A program made the position numbers and the translations under genes. The notes beneath the pieces were generated by a model that was not told where the DNA came from, made no database searches, and saw only the letters and a list, made by a program, of their open reading frames with translations. From a virus, in the IMG/VR virus record IMGVR_UViG_3300029787_000001, positions 32,001 through 96,000 of that record: 64,000 bases of DNA, one strand, 5' to 3'. Position 1 is the stretch's first letter. Every line of letters begins with the position of its first letter. This document shows, piece by piece, positions 2,760-6,745 of this stretch.

Positions 2760-2951
2760 ATGAAAGTCGGTGACCTTGTTAAACTTTCTCACATTGACTA
2801 CCCTCAGTACGTGAACCTGAAGGGGATTTTGATGGAAGAGGTTTTTCCACAAAAGTGGAAGGTTTACATCAAGGGCAAGATGCATCCTTACCTCGTCCAT
2901 CAAGTAAGCTTCGCCAACCACTGGAGAACGAATGATTCACATCACAGGTAA
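2760..2951 (+). CDS. Small SH3/KOW-like protein (MKVGDLV family)
   Basis: MKVGDLVKL N-terminus, RBS. Confidence 0.65.
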   Translation: MKVGDLVKLSHIDYPQYVNLKGILMEEVFPQKWKVYIKGKMHPYLVHQVSFANHWRTNDSHHR

Positions 2952-3528
2952 GATCCCAAGAAGAGTTGCTGTCGCTGTAAGTGGCGGCATTGACTCTATG
3001 GCAGCCCTCGACTTTCTTCGCAGGGCTCATGATGTTGTTGTGTTGCACTACAACCACGGCACACCTTATGCTCCAAAGGCAGAGGCTCTTGTTCGTGCCT
3101 ATTGCATGAAGCACAAACTAACCATCGTCATCGGAAGATGCGAGGAAGAGATGCCCGATGGCGTTTCCCCTGAAGCGTGGTGGCGAGAAAAACGTTACAA
3201 GTTCTTTGAAGAAGCAACAACTTCGCCCATTGTCACGGCACACCACCTTGACGATCAGGTTGAGAACTGGATCTTCACAAGTCTCAATGGTAACCCATTC
3301 TTGATCCCGCACAAGCGCGATCAGTTCATCCGACCTTTCTTGACCACAGAGAAGCGAGACTTTACGATGTGGTGCATTCGCAAAGAAGTGCCAACGATCA
3401 GCGATCCCAGCAATGGAGACTATCGCTACAGGCGCAACTACATTCGCAATGTAATGATGCCGCACGTCACACACATCAATCCCGGCATCAAGAAAGTAGT
3501 GAAGAAGAAAGTCCTTGACAGCATGTGA
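2932..3528 (+). CDS. tilS: tRNA(Ile)-lysidine synthetase, N-terminal PP-loop catalytic domain only
   Basis: VAVSGGIDS PP-loop, HYNHG, AHHLDDQVE, RPFL, DPSN, RRNYIR motifs. Confidence 0.88.
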   Translation: MIHITGKIPRRVAVAVSGGIDSMAALDFLRRAHDVVVLHYNHGTPYAPKAEALVRAYCMKHKLTIVIGRCEEEMPDGVSPEAWWREKRYKFFEEATTSPIVTAHHLDDQVENWIFTSLNGNPFLIPHKRDQFIRPFLTTEKRDFTMWCIRKEVPTISDPSNGDYRYRRNYIRNVMMPHVTHINPGIKKVVKKKVLDSM

Positions 3529-3565: not shown

Positions 3566-3957
3566 ATGACCACTGACGAACTGCGACACAACTATGCCGA
3601 CGCCTTCATCGCCCTTGTGATGGATGGTGCTGAGGGAAGCGCCCTCGATGTTCATCACCGCGATGCGATCATTCTCGCACTACAGGATGCGATCGAGTTC
3701 TTCTCGGCGGCTGAATACGGCACCGAGATTTCTTAAATAAATCCTTGACAGCAGACGACCACCCGGTTAGATTAACAGAGTCCCAAGAGGACAAGGAGAC
3801 AAAGCAAATGAGCATCGAACTTATGCAGCAGATTTCTAACATTCTCACCACCACTATCCTTTTCTATGCCACCCTGATTGGCATGTGCTCCCTTGTCATT
3901 GTGCATGAGGCGCGGAAGTTCATCAATGGACTCCCGACTCCCCGTCAGATTTCTTAA
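3566..3957 (+). other. Two promoter-cassette ORFs (3566-3736, 56 aa; 3808-3957, membrane peptide)
   Basis: Each has its own promoter and RBS; both end in AGATTTCTTAAA. Confidence 0.6.
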
Positions 3958-4086
3958 AAAAACACTTGACAGCCGCTACCCTGTCGGTTAGATTACAGGG
4001 GTAAGGAGGAAGACAGCGACCTCCCGACGCAAAAAAAACGCACTTGACAAGCCGCGCCCTCCCGGTTACAATAGGAGGGACACCAC

Positions 4087-4163
4087 GGGGAGATAGCTCA
4101 ATTGGTCAGAGCATCAGTCTCATAAACTGCCGGTTCCGAGTTCAAGTCTCGGTCTCCCTACCA
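4087..4163 (+). tRNA. tRNA with CAT anticodon (Ile2 or Met)
   Basis: GGGGAGA/TCTCCCT acceptor, loop CT-CAT-AA, TTCAAGT T-loop, encoded CCA; own promoter at 4044. Confidence 0.9.
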
Positions 4164-4225
4164 TCTTAACACTATAGGTGTTGTCCCTACCTTAAAAGGG
4201 GCGCTCATAACTACAAGGAGAAAAT

Positions 4226-4429
4226 ATGAGTACCACTATCACCAGCAGCCTTATCCGCGAGGCAACCTTCGACGCCAACAGCCGCACGCTTACGGTCGTC
4301 CTCAACAGCGGTCGCGAGTACACCTATCAGGGTGTCGATCAGTCAGTCTACCAGGGTCTCGTCTCTGCTGACTCTGCCGGTCGCTTCTTCAACAAGAACA
4401 TTGTTGGTAAGTTCACGACCTCTTCCTGA
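4226..4429 (+). CDS. KTSC domain protein
   Basis: SSLIREATFD...LTVVLNSGREYTYQGV...SADSAGRFFNKNI. Confidence 0.85.
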   Translation: MSTTITSSLIREATFDANSRTLTVVLNSGREYTYQGVDQSVYQGLVSADSAGRFFNKNIVGKFTTSS

Positions 4430-4468
4430 TAAAGGAAAGCCCCGCCCCCGGCTTTGTAGGGGGCTCAC

Positions 4469-4544
4469 GCACCTATAGCTCAATTGGAAGAGCATCGGTT
4501 TTCTACACCGAGGGTTGAGGGTTCGAGTCCTTCTGGGTGTACCA
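4469..4544 (+). tRNA. tRNA-Arg(TCT)
   Basis: Full cloverleaf, TCGGT-TT TCT AC-ACCGA, CCA. Confidence 0.95.
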
Positions 4545-4597
4545 TTTAGCCGACTCTGGGCTTTATCAGAGAACAAATAAAAAGGAAACAGAAAGTA

Positions 4598-4750
4598 ATG
4601 CGTAACATTATGATTCTCGCAGCCGCCATCATGGTAGGTTGTGGAGACAAGGACGAGGACACTGGCAGCGACACTGCCGAGGCTCAGGACACCGACGATG
4701 GTGGAGAGCCAGAAGACACTGGTGGGGAAGACACCGCTGTCGTAGAGTAA
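4598..4750 (+). CDS. Small acidic lipoprotein (50 aa)
   Basis: MRNIMILAAAIMVG-C lipobox then DEDTGSDTAE...EDTGGEDTA; not in the ORF track. Confidence 0.7.
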   Translation: MRNIMILAAAIMVGCGDKDEDTGSDTAEAQDTDDGGEPEDTGGEDTAVVE

Positions 4751-4758
4751 GTAAGAAG

Positions 4759-4787
4759 CCGCTGGCACACCGGTTAAAGTGTGCCAC
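4759..4787 (+). repeat. Hairpin repeat CCGCTGGCACACCGGTTAAAGTGTGCCAC, copy 1
   Basis: Identical 29-mer at 4991-5019; 26-nt match at 21290-21315. Confidence 0.95.
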
Positions 4788-4799
4788 ACATGCTCACCA

Positions 4800-4985
4800 C
4801 CAACATAGGGTCCGAGTAGGTACAGGGAACTGGCTTCAGCGCTAATGCTGACTAAGATGATCCAGTAACGGAAACAACGCTCACCCGTGAGCGGGTCATG
4901 CTAATGATGTTGGAAACAATGTATAGGACAAGTTGATCACTTGTCCGAAAAGACGCCTAACAGAGATTAGGAGTGTCCCTGACAT
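4800..4985 (+). ncRNA. Candidate structured ncRNA between the two hairpin repeats
   Basis: No plausible ORF; at least six helices found by eye (see findings). Confidence 0.6.
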
Positions 4986-4990
4986 TGCAA

Positions 4991-5019
4991 CCGCTGGCAC
5001 ACCGGTTAAAGTGTGCCAC
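4991..5019 (+). repeat. Hairpin repeat, copy 2
   Basis: Identical to 4759-4787; ends 5 nt before tRNA-Gln. Confidence 0.95.
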
Positions 5020-5024
5020 TTTAT

Positions 5025-5100
5025 TGGGACGTGGCGCAATTGGTAGCGCATCGGTTTTTGGCACCGAGGGTTGTAGGTTCGAGTCCTACCGTCCCAGCCA
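5025..5100 (+). tRNA. tRNA-Gln(TTG)
   Basis: T1-A72, G73, loop TT-TTG-GC, CCA. Confidence 0.92.
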
Positions 5101-5266
5101 CTTAAGAGGAAATAACATGAGCACAGTAGAGTTATGTTTTGGAATTTTGATTTCTGCAACGGTCATTATTGCCGTGATTCAGTACAAACTTTCAGAGTCT
5201 CCCGATCGTCGTAAATAAAAACACTTGACACCCGCACCTCTCCGGGTTACAATAGAGAGGACACAA

Positions 5267-5352
5267 GCCAGCGTGGTGGAATGGTATACACAGCAGACTC
5301 AAAATCTGCCGGTCTTATGACCTTGCGAGTTCGAGTCTCGCCGCTGGTACCA
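5267..5352 (+). tRNA. tRNA-Leu(CAA)
   Basis: Long variable arm, CT-CAA-AA, A73, CCA; own promoter at 5225. Confidence 0.95.
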
Positions 5353-5375
5353 CTTTTCAAACAGGATAAAGCAAA

Positions 5376-5768
5376 ATGGGCATTTTTATCGTAACAGCAA
5401 CTCACACGGACGACGATTATAAGCGTCCCCACGTAAGCAGTGAAACTGCGATGGCCACTTCTCACGAAGACGCTGTTGTGCGTGCAGTAGAGTTCTATCT
5501 TGAAAGGCTCGATGGTGGCTATTCTTTCGATTACCACAATCCATCAGGGTTCAATAAGGTAATCGAGCAGCACCGAAACAGCCCACAGACTCTATTCTCA
5601 GCACTTTACGATTACTTTGAGAGCAACCCAGAAGGAATGTTTACTGGCGAGTTTGTCCCAGAAACCCTAAATGTGACCATTAGCGAAAACGAACACGTCC
5701 CGCTTGATACAAAGCCAATCCTATCTATGGTTGACGAGGTTTCTCGTTACATCAGAGAGGAAATGTAA
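5376..5768 (+). CDS. Hypothetical protein
   Basis: ORF between tRNAs. Confidence 0.6.
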   Translation: MGIFIVTATHTDDDYKRPHVSSETAMATSHEDAVVRAVEFYLERLDGGYSFDYHNPSGFNKVIEQHRNSPQTLFSALYDYFESNPEGMFTGEFVPETLNVTISENEHVPLDTKPILSMVDEVSRYIREEM

Positions 5769-5782
5769 CAATAGAATATTTT

Positions 5783-5858
5783 GGGTCTATAGCTCAATTG
5801 GCAGAGCATCGGACTTTTAATCCGCAGGTTCTGGGTTCGATTCCCAGTGGACCCACCA
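5783..5858 (+). tRNA. tRNA-Lys(TTT)
   Basis: Cloverleaf, CT-TTT-AA, CCA. Confidence 0.95.
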
Positions 5859-5877
5859 TTTAAAATAAGGAGAAGAG

Positions 5878-6402
5878 ATGTTTAAGAAAGTTTTGGCATG
5901 CATATTGTGCCTGGGGTTGTCAACAGCCGCATACGCTCAGGCGCCCGTAGCCGAGGATGCAGACGCATCTAAGATGGACTGGAATACTCGCAAGGGCATC
6001 CGGTTTGGATACAACTATGCAAACAAGGCAGATGAGTCAGACAAGCTTCAGAGCCCACACATGTTTGTGATTGGCTTTGAGATGCAGCAGACAATGGACG
6101 GCGATTCGTGGCTCGACTTGCTTTTTATTCAGAACTTGACCATCAGTGGTTTGGACCAAAGTGTTGTTCTTCCATCTGGAAACGCGCTTGTCGGATTTGA
6201 AATCAAAGATGCACTACAGTTGGCAGTGGGCGCTAACGCCACTATCGTTGATCCTTCTGATGAGGACCACTATGTACATCTTGTTACTGCGGTCGGGTGG
6301 ACGCAGGATGCGGGAATCTTCAGCGTCCCAGTTCATCTTATCTTTGTCCCAGATGTCAATGACTATTATAGGGTTGCAGTTACTACCGGGATTAACTGGT
6401 AG
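5878..6402 (+). CDS. Exported protein, probable small outer-membrane beta-barrel
   Basis: Signal peptide ending AYA, amphipathic strands, C-terminal YRVAVTTGINW beta-signal-like end. Confidence 0.55.
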   Translation: MFKKVLACILCLGLSTAAYAQAPVAEDADASKMDWNTRKGIRFGYNYANKADESDKLQSPHMFVIGFEMQQTMDGDSWLDLLFIQNLTISGLDQSVVLPSGNALVGFEIKDALQLAVGANATIVDPSDEDHYVHLVTAVGWTQDAGIFSVPVHLIFVPDVNDYYRVAVTTGINW

Positions 6403-6453
6403 TCATTGTAAATAACCGCAGGGAGGCACGGGTTTACAGGTGCCTCAACTTTT

Positions 6454-6528
6454 GCTCCCATAGTTTAGCGGTTAGAATGCCGGCTTTTCACGCCGGAGGT
6501 CGGGGTTCGATTCCCCGTGGGAGTACCA
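6454..6528 (+). tRNA. tRNA-Glu(TTC)
   Basis: CCGGC-TT TTC AC-GCCGG, CCA. Confidence 0.93.
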
Positions 6529-6533
6529 TTTTT

Positions 6534-6609
<76 letters not shown>

Positions 6610-6670
6610 CTTTCCACTTGACACCGTCAGCCCCTCCGGTTACAATAGAGGGGAGGCACAGAACACTTAT

Positions 6671-6745
6671 CGAGAACAACGCGCGGGGTGTGCGGCCAGT
6701 TTTGGGTACTGGAAGTGCCGGGTTCAACTCCCGGGTTCTCGACCA
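6671..6745 (+). tRNA. tRNA-Pro(TGG) with atypical D-arm
   Basis: CGAGAAC/GTTCTCG, A73, CCAGT-TT TGG GT-ACTGG, T-arm CCGGG/CCCGG, CCA; A at position 8 and non-consensus D-loop. Confidence 0.8.

What the first reader, a model, noticed from the sequence alone, without database searches (positions are those of the whole stretch)
4800..4985. Pseudoknotted ~185-nt ncRNA candidate inside the tRNA cluster
Seen: ORF-free stretch between the two hairpin repeats. Helices: CAGGGA(4823-28)/TCCCTG(4976-81), ACTGG/CCAGT (4829/4862), CAGC/GCTG, CGCTCA/TGAGCG (4878-93), GGACAAGT/ACTTGTCC (4926-46) and CCTAA/TTAGG (4956-71). CCAACAT(4800-06)/ATGTTGG(4907-13) crosses the closing helix, giving a pseudoknot. The motif pair GCTAATG...GGAAACAA occurs twice. 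Known: large phage ncRNAs such as GOLLD and ROOL lie next to tRNAs, but I cannot match this to either. Inference: a co-processed structured RNA of unknown function.
Basis: partly seen in the sequence, partly recalled or inferred. Interest (0 to 1): 0.75.

Follow-up and report, generated by a model that had tools for sequence, protein, structure and literature searches.

The report
HDV-like self-cleaving ribozyme, phage tRNA cluster
The "unknown pseudoknotted RNA" is most likely a small self-cutting RNA of the hepatitis-delta type, sitting among the tRNA genes of an uncultured marine T4-like phage. It carries an unusual large insertion in one of its core loops and recurs in about 90 sequence variants in ocean metagenomes.

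Summary
Its pseudoknot, CCAACAT/ATGTTGG, is real and conserved. The overall model is wrong and the RNA is not of an unknown kind.

Window 4792-4913 fits the nested double pseudoknot of HDV-like ribozymes: P1, P2, P3 and P1.1, with no P4, and a C-U-A-A junction holding the putative catalytic C4901. Pattern scans found about 90 distinct relatives in marine viral and metagenome contigs. P1 and P3 show compensatory changes (6 pairs with changes on both sides; 0 of 500 shuffles reach this).

One relative, L082, is a minimal 58-nt form with a normal 7-nt L3. It alone hits Rfam's HDV-F-prausnitzii model, below the family threshold (E 0.004). In every other copy L3 holds a hypervariable stem-closed insertion of 32-140 nt, 73 nt in the window.

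Positions 4914-4990 are a separate structured module that is shuffled independently of the ribozyme.

The ribozyme lies 6 nt after a conserved leader hairpin, on the tRNA strand. It probably cuts the polycistronic tRNA-cluster transcript.

The closest known relatives are the P4-less "theta" ribozymes of gut phages. I class this as a new variant of a known kind. Self-cleavage has not been tested.

The parts
4759..4787 (+). Leader hairpin repeat, copy 1. Stem GGCACAC 4764-4770 / GTGTGCC 4779-4785, loop CGGTTAAA. It ends 6 nt before the predicted cleavage site.
   Evidence: Sequence. Folds at -13.1 kcal/mol. The same hairpin lies 4-6 nt upstream of the ribozyme in 26 of 77 untruncated distinct contexts, plus one at 16 nt; many other contexts carry hairpins with different stems.
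4792..4797 (+). P1 5' strand, GCUCAC. G4792 is the predicted first nucleotide of the ribozyme, with cleavage between U4791 and G4792.
   Evidence: Pairs with 4887-4892. Compensatory variants in relatives: GUUUCGU/ACGAAAC, GUUUCAC/GUGAAAC, GCUUUAC/GUAAAGC, GCUCAU/AUGAGC.
4800..4806 (+). P2 5' strand, CCAACAU. It is preceded by J1/2 (CA, 4798-99) and followed by A4807.
   Evidence: 100% of cells paired with 4907-4913. All six 5'-side variants are G.U-compatible. Two relatives extend P2 to 9 bp.
4808..4810 (+). P3 5' strand, GGG.
   Evidence: Pairs with CCC 4884-4886. Variants GCC/GGC, AGC/GCU, AGG/CCU, ACU/AGU and GGU/ACC; all three pairs show changes on both sides.
4811..4883 (+). L3 with insertion. 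U4811, then C4812 and C4813 (P1.1 5' strand), then a 69-nt insertion closed by G4814:C4882, A4815:U4881 and G4816:C4880, then A4883.
   Evidence: L3 starts UCC in 70 of 78 parsed copies; most of the rest are register shifts of the parser. L3 length is 7 nt in L082 and 32-140 nt elsewhere. The base of the insertion stem covaries: GAG/CUC, GAC/GUC, GAA/UUC, GGG/CCC, GGU/GCC. The window's insert alone folds no better than shuffles (z -0.2).
4884..4892 (+). P3 3' strand CCC (4884-86), directly followed by P1 3' strand GUGAGC (4887-92).
4893..4895 (+). GGG. Two of these three G form P1.1 with C4812 and C4813.
   Evidence: Invariant, but this triplet was part of the search pattern. The 12 copies found without the exact 3' search word also carry CGGG here. 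In the Rfam alignment of L082 the last two G align to the model's P1.1 G's.
4896..4906 (+). Short linker in place of P4 (UCAUG, 4896-4900), then J4/2: C4901 (putative catalytic cytosine), U4902, A4903, A4904, U4905, G4906.
   Evidence: The linker varies (UCAU, UCGC, AACAAAUA, AUCGUA, AAAAAUA). CUAAUG is invariant, including in 12 copies not selected by the 3' search word. It aligns to GCUAAGAUG of RF02682.
4907..4913 (+). P2 3' strand, AUGUUGG. This is the end of the ribozyme.
   Evidence: The AAA that follows is not conserved in the copies.
4914..4990 (+). Separate stem-closed 3' module. Terminal stem CAAUGU 4917-22 / ACAUUG 4982-87, with hairpins 4926-46 and 4956-71.
   Evidence: z -3.0. There are 31 module types, of which 14 are combined with more than one L3-insert type. 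The module is absent in 5 elements, where the hairpin follows P2' directly. The same module follows three other ribozymes: L147, L082 and L075.
4991..5019 (+). Leader hairpin repeat, copy 2. Stem 4996-5002 / 5011-5017. It ends 7 nt before tRNA-Gln (5025-5100).
   Evidence: Flagged terminator-like. In 73 of 80 distinct contexts a matching hairpin follows within 400 nt. Where a tRNA comes next it starts about 5-14 nt after the hairpin, mostly 5-8.

Best explanation
Window 4792-4913 (+ strand) encodes a P4-less ("minimal") HDV-like self-cleaving ribozyme.

Fold (shown by comparative analysis):
- P1 is GCUCAC/GUGAGC.
- P2, CCAACAU/AUGUUGG, crosses P1.
- P3 is GGG/CCC.
- The CC at the start of L3 pairs with the GG after P1 to form P1.1.
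- The junction C4901-U-A-A sits where the catalytic cytosine of HDV ribozymes sits.

Function (inferred, not shown):
- As the polycistronic transcript is made, probably from the sigma70-like promoter at 4044, the RNA folds and cuts itself between U4791 and G4792. That transcript would run tRNA-Met, ORF, tRNA-Arg, ORF 4598-4750, ribozyme, module, tRNA-Gln.
- The upstream small-ORF mRNA would end in the leader hairpin plus 6 nt with a 2',3'-cyclic phosphate.
- The downstream RNA would begin with a 5'-OH.
- RNase P cutting at tRNA-Gln would then release a ribozyme-plus-module RNA of about 233 nt that ends in the second hairpin.
- In relatives where a tRNA lies 4 nt upstream, the same cut would trim the tRNA 3' trailer, as described for theta ribozymes.

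The unusual feature is a hypervariable, stem-closed insertion in L3. Its role is unknown.
For: 1. Family and conservation. Pattern scans found 7 copies in IMG/VR and 98 stretches in marine metagenome contigs. These give 74-78 distinct copies, depending on how much flank is counted. Two near-invariant boxes surround a hypervariable insert.

2. Covariation. 98.6% of cells are paired, against 95.8% in shuffles and 28-52% when partners are slid. Six pairs have changes on both sides (27 cells); 0 of 500 shuffles reach this. All of these pairs are in P1 and P3. Explicit variants are tabulated.

3. Strand. There are 17 G.U cells that would be A.C mismatches on the other strand. All neighbouring tRNAs are co-oriented: 54 of 54 downstream and 46 of 47 upstream.

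4. Family signatures. The order P1-P2-P3-P3'-P1'-GG-linker-C-N-A-A-P2' is present. L3 begins UCC. G1 follows non-conserved upstream sequence; position -1 is U in most copies but A in three.

5. The one copy with a normal 7-nt L3 (L082:1023-1078, L3 = UCCACGU) is aligned end to end by Rfam RF02682, the HDV ribozyme from F. prausnitzii, at 25.6 bits and E 0.0038. P1, P3, L3, GG and GCUAA are in register.

6. A generic HDV-like descriptor finds this site and one dubious one in the 191-kb genome. It finds none in three shuffled copies or in the reversed genome.

7. Twelve further copies picked up by the 5' box alone all keep CUAAUG and AUGUUGG, while the flanking bases vary.

8. Context matches known biology. 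Minimal HDV-like ribozymes next to phage tRNAs are documented and active in vitro (PMC10879173). In three distinct contexts here (in loci L017, L065 and L136) G1 lies 4 nt after tRNA-Asn-CCA.
Against: - Self-cleavage has not been demonstrated for any member.
- The window copy and 77 of 78 relatives have a 32-140-nt insertion in L3, a loop that lines the active site in HDV ribozymes. I know of no active HDV-like ribozyme with such an insertion.
- Rfam gives no hit on the window copy. The L082 hit is below the gathering score (25.6 against 44 bits).
- P2, P1.1 and J4/2 show no compensatory changes. Their 3' sides were fixed by my search patterns, except in the 12 copies.
- The third P3 pair is mismatched in about 8 of 78 copies.
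- G1 pairs with C rather than forming the G.U wobble typical of HDV. The Rfam F. prausnitzii consensus also has G-C here.
- In the window the ribozyme is 247 nt from the nearest upstream tRNA, so tRNA 3' maturation cannot be its role there.
- My descriptor was written after I had seen the sequence.
Confidence: 0.8

Rival explanations
1. A non-catalytic structured RNA, for example a protein-binding or regulatory pseudoknot or a stabilising 5' cap structure for the downstream module. On this reading the HDV-like topology is convergent, or it descends from a ribozyme that the L3 insertion has since inactivated.
For: 77 of 78 copies carry a large L3 insertion that might be incompatible with catalysis. 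There is no Rfam hit on the window copy. The element is always followed by structured modules and hairpins, as if it were part of a larger stable RNA.
Against: The nucleotides that matter only for catalysis are invariant: the CC/GG of P1.1, C-U-A-A and G1. Peripheral parts vary freely. An inactivated relic would not keep these across about 90 diverged copies. The insert-free member matches an HDV ribozyme model.
Confidence: 0.13
2. A DNA-level element: part of a recombination or regulatory cassette (PeSL-like), or a homing or insertion site. The conserved boxes would then be protein-binding DNA sites rather than RNA.
For: The unit is flanked by repeated hairpin cassettes. Inserts and modules are shuffled like mobile modules. 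The phage is T4-like, and PeSL cassettes mediate such shuffling in T4-like phages (PMC4122927).
Against: Helices keep pairing through G.U states that are mismatches in duplex DNA or on the other strand. There is long-range compensatory covariation. Orientation with the tRNAs is strict.
Confidence: 0.04
3. A short leader peptide gene (ATG at 4790: MLTTNIGSE*), or a fragment of a group I intron. The intron idea comes from a shared 17-nt word, GCTAATGATGTTGGAAA, found in the intervening sequences of L016 and L047.
For: An ATG-led frame exists in all copies. The 17-mer lies in a hairpin of a roughly 315-nt intron-like insertion in a ribonucleotide reductase small-subunit gene in L016, and in a similar sequence in L047.
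Against: Frame length and stop position are not conserved, one lineage has a 1-nt deletion in the frame, and there is no ribosome-binding site. There are no flanking exons, no conserved P4-P6-like region, and the insert is hypervariable. Rfam finds no group I intron. About 25 other 17-mer hits were clearly chance matches in coding DNA.
Confidence: 0.02

Closest known systems
Theta ribozymes / minimal HDV-like ribozymes (drz-Mtgn type) of Caudoviricetes (Kienbeck et al. 2024, PMC10879173)
   Same: Both have the nested double pseudoknot without P4, with the catalytic C at the first position of J4/2. Both are encoded by tailed phages, on the tRNA strand and inside tRNA clusters. In some relatives the cleavage site lies 4 nt after a tRNA 3' end.
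   Different: - L3 carries a 32-140-nt stem-closed hypervariable insertion in all but one copy.
- Most copies, including the window's, follow a leader hairpin rather than a tRNA.
- The habitat is marine, in far-T4-like phages. The published set is more than 80% gut, and its marine database gave 7 hits, none tRNA-associated.
- None of the core words occurs in the paper's supplementary files as held. Four of the nine files were cut when stored.
- No CCA-adding enzyme or RNA-ligase Pfam hit was found in this genome.
Rfam RF02682, HDV ribozyme from Faecalibacterium prausnitzii
   Same: It gives the best and only meaningful Rfam alignment, for the minimal member L082. P1 (with a G1-C pair), P3, L3 (CCACGU-like), GG and GCUAA are in register.
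   Different: The score is 25.6 bits against a gathering score of 44. P4 (18 model positions) is replaced by 4 nt. The window copy is not detected at all.
Genomic HDV and CPEB3 ribozymes
   Same: Compared from memory of the published structures, not tested here. They share the helix order, a 3-bp P3, L3 starting U-C-C (U-U-C in CPEB3), a C-C/G-G P1.1, and C-N-A-A-U before P2'.
   Different: This family has no P4, a 6-bp P1 closed by G-C instead of 7 bp with a G.U wobble, and the L3 insertion.
PeSL promoter/terminator stem-loop cassettes of T4-like phages (PMC2839356, PMC4122927)
   Same: The flanking hairpin repeats, and the sigma70-like promoters whose -10 box sits in the loop of a covarying hairpin, are short conserved cassettes. 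They bracket small ORFs, tRNAs and this RNA in a variable region of a Gp23-encoding phage.
   Different: The 29-nt repeat next to the ribozyme has no TTGACA -35 box. It may act only as an RNA hairpin: a leader, or a 3' stabiliser. No test was done here.

Membership tests
HDV-like self-cleaving ribozymes | Nested double-pseudoknot order: P1, P2, P3, L3, P3', P1', P1.1, (P4), J4/2, P2'. | tested here: met
   All strands are found in this order in the window. 98.6% of cells are paired over 78 copies.
HDV-like self-cleaving ribozymes | Helices supported by covariation. | tested here: met
   P1 has 3 pairs and P3 has 3 pairs with changes on both sides; 0 of 500 shuffles reach this. P2 and P1.1 show only G.U-compatible one-sided changes, and their 3' sides were fixed by the search patterns.
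HDV-like self-cleaving ribozymes | Catalytic cytosine at the first position of J4/2, followed by N-A-A. | tested here: met
   C4901-U-A-A is present. It is invariant in 78 copies (ascertained through the search word) and in 12 copies found through the 5' box only.
HDV-like self-cleaving ribozymes | P1.1: two C of L3 pair with two G directly after P1'. | tested here: inconclusive
   CC (4812-13) and GGG (4893-95) are present and near-invariant, so there is no covariation to prove the pairing.
HDV-like self-cleaving ribozymes | Short L3 of about 7-8 nt closing a 3-bp P3. | tested here: not met
   P3 is 3 bp, but L3 is 73 nt in the window and 32-140 nt in 77 of 78 copies. Only L082 has 7 nt.
HDV-like self-cleaving ribozymes | Self-scission 5' of G1, giving 2',3'-cyclic phosphate and 5'-OH, abolished by a C-to-U change. 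| not testable with these tools
   Only assembled contigs of RNA libraries were available. They cannot show RNA ends.
HDV-like self-cleaving ribozymes | Score above the gathering threshold of an Rfam HDV-type model. | tested here: not met
   No hit on the window. L082 scores 25.6 bits against 44 for RF02682.
Theta ribozymes (tRNA-associated minimal HDV-like ribozymes) | No P4 domain. | tested here: met
   Only 4-8 nt lie between the GGG and the G/U that precedes the catalytic C.
Theta ribozymes (tRNA-associated minimal HDV-like ribozymes) | Cleavage site within +/-5 nt of a tRNA 3' end. | tested here: not met
   In the window G1 is 247 nt after tRNA-Arg and 6 nt after a hairpin. The feature is met in 3 of 80 distinct contexts, plus a few contexts with tRNA-like T arms that ARAGORN missed.
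   No match at gathering or at E<=10.
PeSL cassettes (for the flanking hairpins) | Early sigma70-type promoter joined to a stem-loop, repeated in variable regions of T4-like phages. | tested here: inconclusive
   The phage has a Gp23 capsid gene. Neighbouring promoters at 3745, 3966, 4044 and 5225 have this design. The two repeats that flank the ribozyme lack a -35 box.

The most novel reading that the evidence does not exclude
The L3 insertion may not be a passive passenger. This would then be a new structural class of HDV-like ribozyme in which a hypervariable domain, placed at the active-site loop, tunes or gates cleavage, for example by binding a phage or host factor or an RNA. Alternatively, the ribozyme may serve as a built-in 5'-OH-generating cap for a family of shuffled, stem-closed small RNAs, some of them tRNA-like, analogous to the unexplained stable RNAs C and D of the T4 tRNA cluster.
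Probability: 0.2. Interest if true: 0.85.

Novelty: new variant of a known kind. Interest (0 to 1): 0.62.

Why it matters
HDV-like ribozymes next to phage tRNAs were described only in 2024, almost entirely from gut phages. That motif search found 7 marine hits, none of them tRNA-associated.

This finding adds a large, tightly conserved marine family in far-T4-like phages. Existing descriptors and Rfam miss it because the active-site loop L3 carries a long variable insertion.

If the family is active, three things follow:
- The HDV fold tolerates, or uses, insertions at a position thought to be constrained.
- Ribozyme-based transcript processing extends to ocean phages.
- It gives a mechanism for cutting apart the mixed units of tRNA, small ORF and small RNA in phage variable regions, where the ribozyme would do what RNase P does at tRNAs.

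It also gives a concrete, cheap bench test.

Tried and rejected
- **Rfam.** The whole window at gathering thresholds gave only tRNAs. Positions 4700-5050 at E<=10 gave only noise.
- **Cultured phages.** GenBank phage records have no match to the region or to the minimal ribozyme, so no cultured phage carrying it was found.
- **5'-box scan of IMG/VR**. It returned only members already known, plus chance hits in coding DNA.
- **Group I intron lead.** The 17- to 20-nt word also occurs in an intron-like insertion of a ribonucleotide reductase gene (L016) and in L047. I rejected this as the identity of the window element. The window element has no exons and no conserved P4-P6, Rfam finds no group I intron, and about 25 other hits of the word were chance.
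- **Leader peptide reading.** Rejected: the frame is not conserved.
- **tmRNA or tRNA-like reading of the 5' box ACCACCA.** Rejected: ARAGORN finds no tmRNA, and the geometry does not fit a T arm plus acceptor.
Tested and at chance level.
- **Metatranscriptome runs.** Contigs of four RNA libraries hold family members, with other inserts and modules. Contigs cannot show RNA ends or prove transcription, and their breakpoints coincide with the boundaries between conserved and variable sequence, as expected from assembly. I draw no conclusion from them.
- **Theta-ribozyme supplementary files.** No occurrence of the core words. Four of the nine files were cut when stored, so absence is not proven.
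- **3'-module word in IMG/VR.** No hit.
- **CCA-adding enzyme and RNA-ligase Pfam families in the genome.** None found.

Full report
**Setting**

The window is bases 32001-96000 of a 191-kb IMG/VR virus record. The genome encodes a Gp23-type major capsid protein (PF07068, 198.6 bits). Its nearest cultured relatives are Flavobacterium phage immuto, Rhodothermus phage RM378 and Microcystis phage Mel-JY01, at 36-47% identity. It is therefore a distant member of the T4 superfamily from seawater.

Positions 4087-6745 hold eight tRNA genes, all on the + strand. Small ORFs and sigma70-like promoters lie between them, at 3745, 3966, 4044, 5225 and 6618. The candidate lies between a 50-codon ORF (4598-4750) and tRNA-Gln (5025-5100). 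It is bracketed by two copies of a 29-nt hairpin repeat at 4759-4787 and 4991-5019.

**Checking the observation**

Thermodynamic folding of 4795-4990 is unimpressive: z -1.8 on the + strand and z -2.7 on the - strand. Rfam finds nothing there. Energy alone would have left the claim open, so the decision rests on relatives.

**Relatives**

- A 20-mer and then a 17-mer from the 3' conserved part retrieved six further copies in five IMG/VR contigs, two of them in L017.
- One metagenome scan with CGGG-N(2-9)-GCTAATGATGTTGGAAA gave 98 stretches. All are from marine or estuarine data sets, to judge by their record names.
- After filtering for a 5' box, 105 elements remain, of which 74-78 are distinct.

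Each element has three parts:
- a near-invariant 5' box, (A)UGCUCACCACCAACAUAGGGUCCG;
- a hypervariable middle;
- a near-invariant 3' box, CACCCGUGAGCGGG-linker-GCUAAUGAUGUUGG.

Up to three copies occur per contig, sometimes in tandem about 250 nt apart.

**The fold**

The variation between copies defines these helices.

| Helix | Window sequence | Variants seen in relatives |
|---|---|---|
| P1 | GCUCAC / GUGAGC | GUUUCGU/ACGAAAC (L070), GUUUCAC/GUGAAAC (L128), GCUUUAC/GUAAAGC (L082), GCUCAU/AUGAGC; several G.U states |
| P3 | GGG / CCC | GCC/GGC (7 copies), GGU/ACC, AGC/GCU, AGG/CCU, ACU/AGU |
| P2 | CCAACAU / AUGUUGG | six one-sided changes, all G.U-compatible; 9 bp in two copies |

On the MAFFT alignment A1 I counted the 18 pairs of the structure:
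- 98.6% of cells are paired, against 95.8% in shuffles and 28-52% when partners are slid.
- Six pairs have changes on both sides, in 27 cells. No shuffle out of 500 reaches this.
- The covariation score is 0.090 against 0.045.
- The 17 G.U cells would be mismatches on the opposite strand. Together with the strict co-orientation with tRNAs, this fixes the + strand as the RNA strand.

**Identity**

The strand order is P1, 2 nt, P2, 1 nt, P3, loop, P3', P1', GGG, short linker, C-U-A-A-U-G, P2'. This is the nested double pseudoknot of HDV-like ribozymes. The signature details are also present:
- a 3-bp P3;
- a loop L3 that begins U-C-C, whose two C can pair with two of the G that follow P1' to form P1.1;
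- a cytosine at the first position of J4/2 followed by N-A-A. From memory of the published structures, HDV has C75-G-A-A-U;
- a G as the first nucleotide, preceded by non-conserved sequence;
- no P4, as in the "minimal" HDV-like ribozymes.

The decisive link is relative L082. Its L3 is only 7 nt (UCCACGU), so the whole ribozyme is 58 nt. Rfam's HDV-F-prausnitzii model aligns it end to end at E 0.0038 and 25.6 bits. That is below the 44-bit threshold, but P1, P3, L3, GG and GCUAA are in register.

A generic descriptor that I wrote finds the window site, plus one dubious site, in the 191-kb genome. The descriptor requires:
- a P1 of 6-7 bp;
- a P3 of 3 bp followed by NCC;
- GG after P1';
- C-N-A-A before P2'.

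It finds nothing in three shuffled copies or in the reversed genome. I wrote it after seeing the sequence, so it is supporting evidence only.

My search word fixed the 3' box, so I also collected copies through the 5' box alone. Twelve further distinct copies all keep CUAAUG and AUGUUGG. The base before the C and the three bases after P2' vary.

**What is unusual**

In 77 of 78 copies L3 is 32-140 nt long; in the window it is 73 nt (4811-4883). After U-C-C comes a helix whose base covaries: GAG/CUC, GAC/GUC, GAA/UUC, GGG/CCC, GGU/GCC. Then comes a single A and then P3'.

There are at least 46 insert types. The window's insert folds no better than shuffles on its own.

The published theta-ribozyme study searched with a descriptor for minimal HDV-like ribozymes (PMC10879173). 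It reported 7 hits in its marine database, none of them tRNA-associated. The core words of this family are absent from its supplementary files as held, four of which are truncated.

I therefore regard the L3-insertion family as undescribed, as far as I could check. Whether such an insertion is compatible with catalysis is the main open question.

Positions 4914-4990 form a separate, stem-closed domain (z -3.0). Across the family there are 31 module types at this place:
- 14 are combined with more than one insert type.
- Five elements lack a module altogether.
- Several modules contain a T-arm-like GGUUCGAnUCC hairpin inside a long closing stem.

Complementarity between an element's own insert and its own module is no better than between swapped pairs: 7.9 against 8.1, and 6 in the window. 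The proposed closing helix CAGGGA/UCCCUG is therefore chance.

The local hairpin CGCUCA/UGAGCG exists, but it competes with P1 and P3. It could be an alternative, inactive fold. Copies such as L070 and L082 keep P1 and not this hairpin.

**Context and likely role**

| Position | What is found |
|---|---|
| Immediately upstream of G1 | the leader hairpin 4-6 nt away (26 of 77 untruncated contexts, plus one at 16 nt); other hairpins with different stems; or a tRNA 3' end 4 nt away (3 contexts, plus some tRNA-like ends that ARAGORN missed) |
| Downstream | in 73 of 80 contexts a matching hairpin follows within 400 nt; the next tRNA then starts a few nt after it (7 nt in the window) |

I infer the following; it is not shown. 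Within the polycistronic transcript the hairpin marks the 3' end of each upstream unit. The cut is made either by RNase P at a tRNA or by this ribozyme. In the window the cut would release the small-ORF mRNA with a hairpin-protected end, and it would start the ribozyme-plus-module RNA with a 5'-OH.

The hairpin and promoter cassettes resemble the PeSL elements of T4-like phages (PMC4122927, PMC2839356). That would explain the modular shuffling.

**Expression**

Contigs from four marine RNA libraries contain family members. Contigs cannot show RNA ends or prove transcription, so I draw no conclusion from them.

**Verdict**

The element is best explained as a P4-less HDV-like self-cleaving ribozyme carrying a novel L3 insertion, followed by an unrelated structured module.

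- Confidence in the fold and family assignment: about 0.8.
- Confidence that the inserted forms cleave efficiently: perhaps 0.6-0.7.
- Class: a new variant of a known kind, of moderate to high interest, with a simple decisive experiment.

Noticed in passing
window 3745-3790, 3966-4010, 4044-4085, 5225-5262: The sigma70-like promoters (TTGACA, 17 nt, TAGATT or TACAAT) each have the -10 box in the loop (CGGTTAnAnT) of a hairpin. The stem differs from copy to copy but stays complementary: ACCCTGT/ACAGGGG, CCCTCC/GGAGGG, CCTCTC/GAGAGG. The architecture matches the 29-nt leader hairpin repeat, which lacks the -35 box. It resembles the PeSL promoter/stem-loop cassettes of T4-like phages.
   Followed up: partly
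L092, L078, L065, L128, L077, L091, L079, L024 (3' modules listed): Several of the modules that follow the ribozyme in relatives contain a T-arm-like hairpin (GGTTCGAnTCC in a 5-bp stem) inside a long closing stem, and ARAGORN does not call them tRNAs.
   Followed up: no
L016:5600-5920 (- strand) and L047: A ribonucleotide reductase small-subunit gene is interrupted between ...NELISR and DEGSHCDFA... by about 315 nt. The insertion starts after a T and ends in G, and it contains GATATAGTC-like and P8/P9-like hairpins. This is probably a group I intron that Rfam does not detect at E<=1. It shares a 17- to 20-nt word with the ribozyme.
   Followed up: partly
window 4841-4877 versus 4900-4919: The window's L3 insert contains a second copy of GCTAATG ... 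GGAAACAA and ends in GCTCA, which mimics the P1 5' strand. This insert type may have arisen by partial duplication or recombination between ribozyme copies, and it can form an alternative hairpin with P1' (4878-4893).
   Followed up: no
window 4598-4750: The 50-codon ORF just upstream of the ribozyme encodes a lipoprotein-like signal (…LAAAIMVGC) followed by a very acidic tail. Its mRNA 3' end would be defined by the ribozyme cut.
   Followed up: no
window 2932-3528: A 198-aa PP-loop protein is conserved at 75-93% identity in nine IMG/VR contigs next to tRNA clusters and at 36-44% in five more. An earlier scan note reads it as a minimal TilS; I ran no family search on it. Not all of these relatives carry the ribozyme.
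   Followed up: no
L062:480-540, L130, L149, L104 (upstream of their ribozymes): T-arm plus acceptor-like sequences end 3-7 nt before the ribozyme G1, but ARAGORN does not call them tRNAs. tRNA-adjacent (theta-like) contexts are therefore probably under-counted.
   Followed up: no
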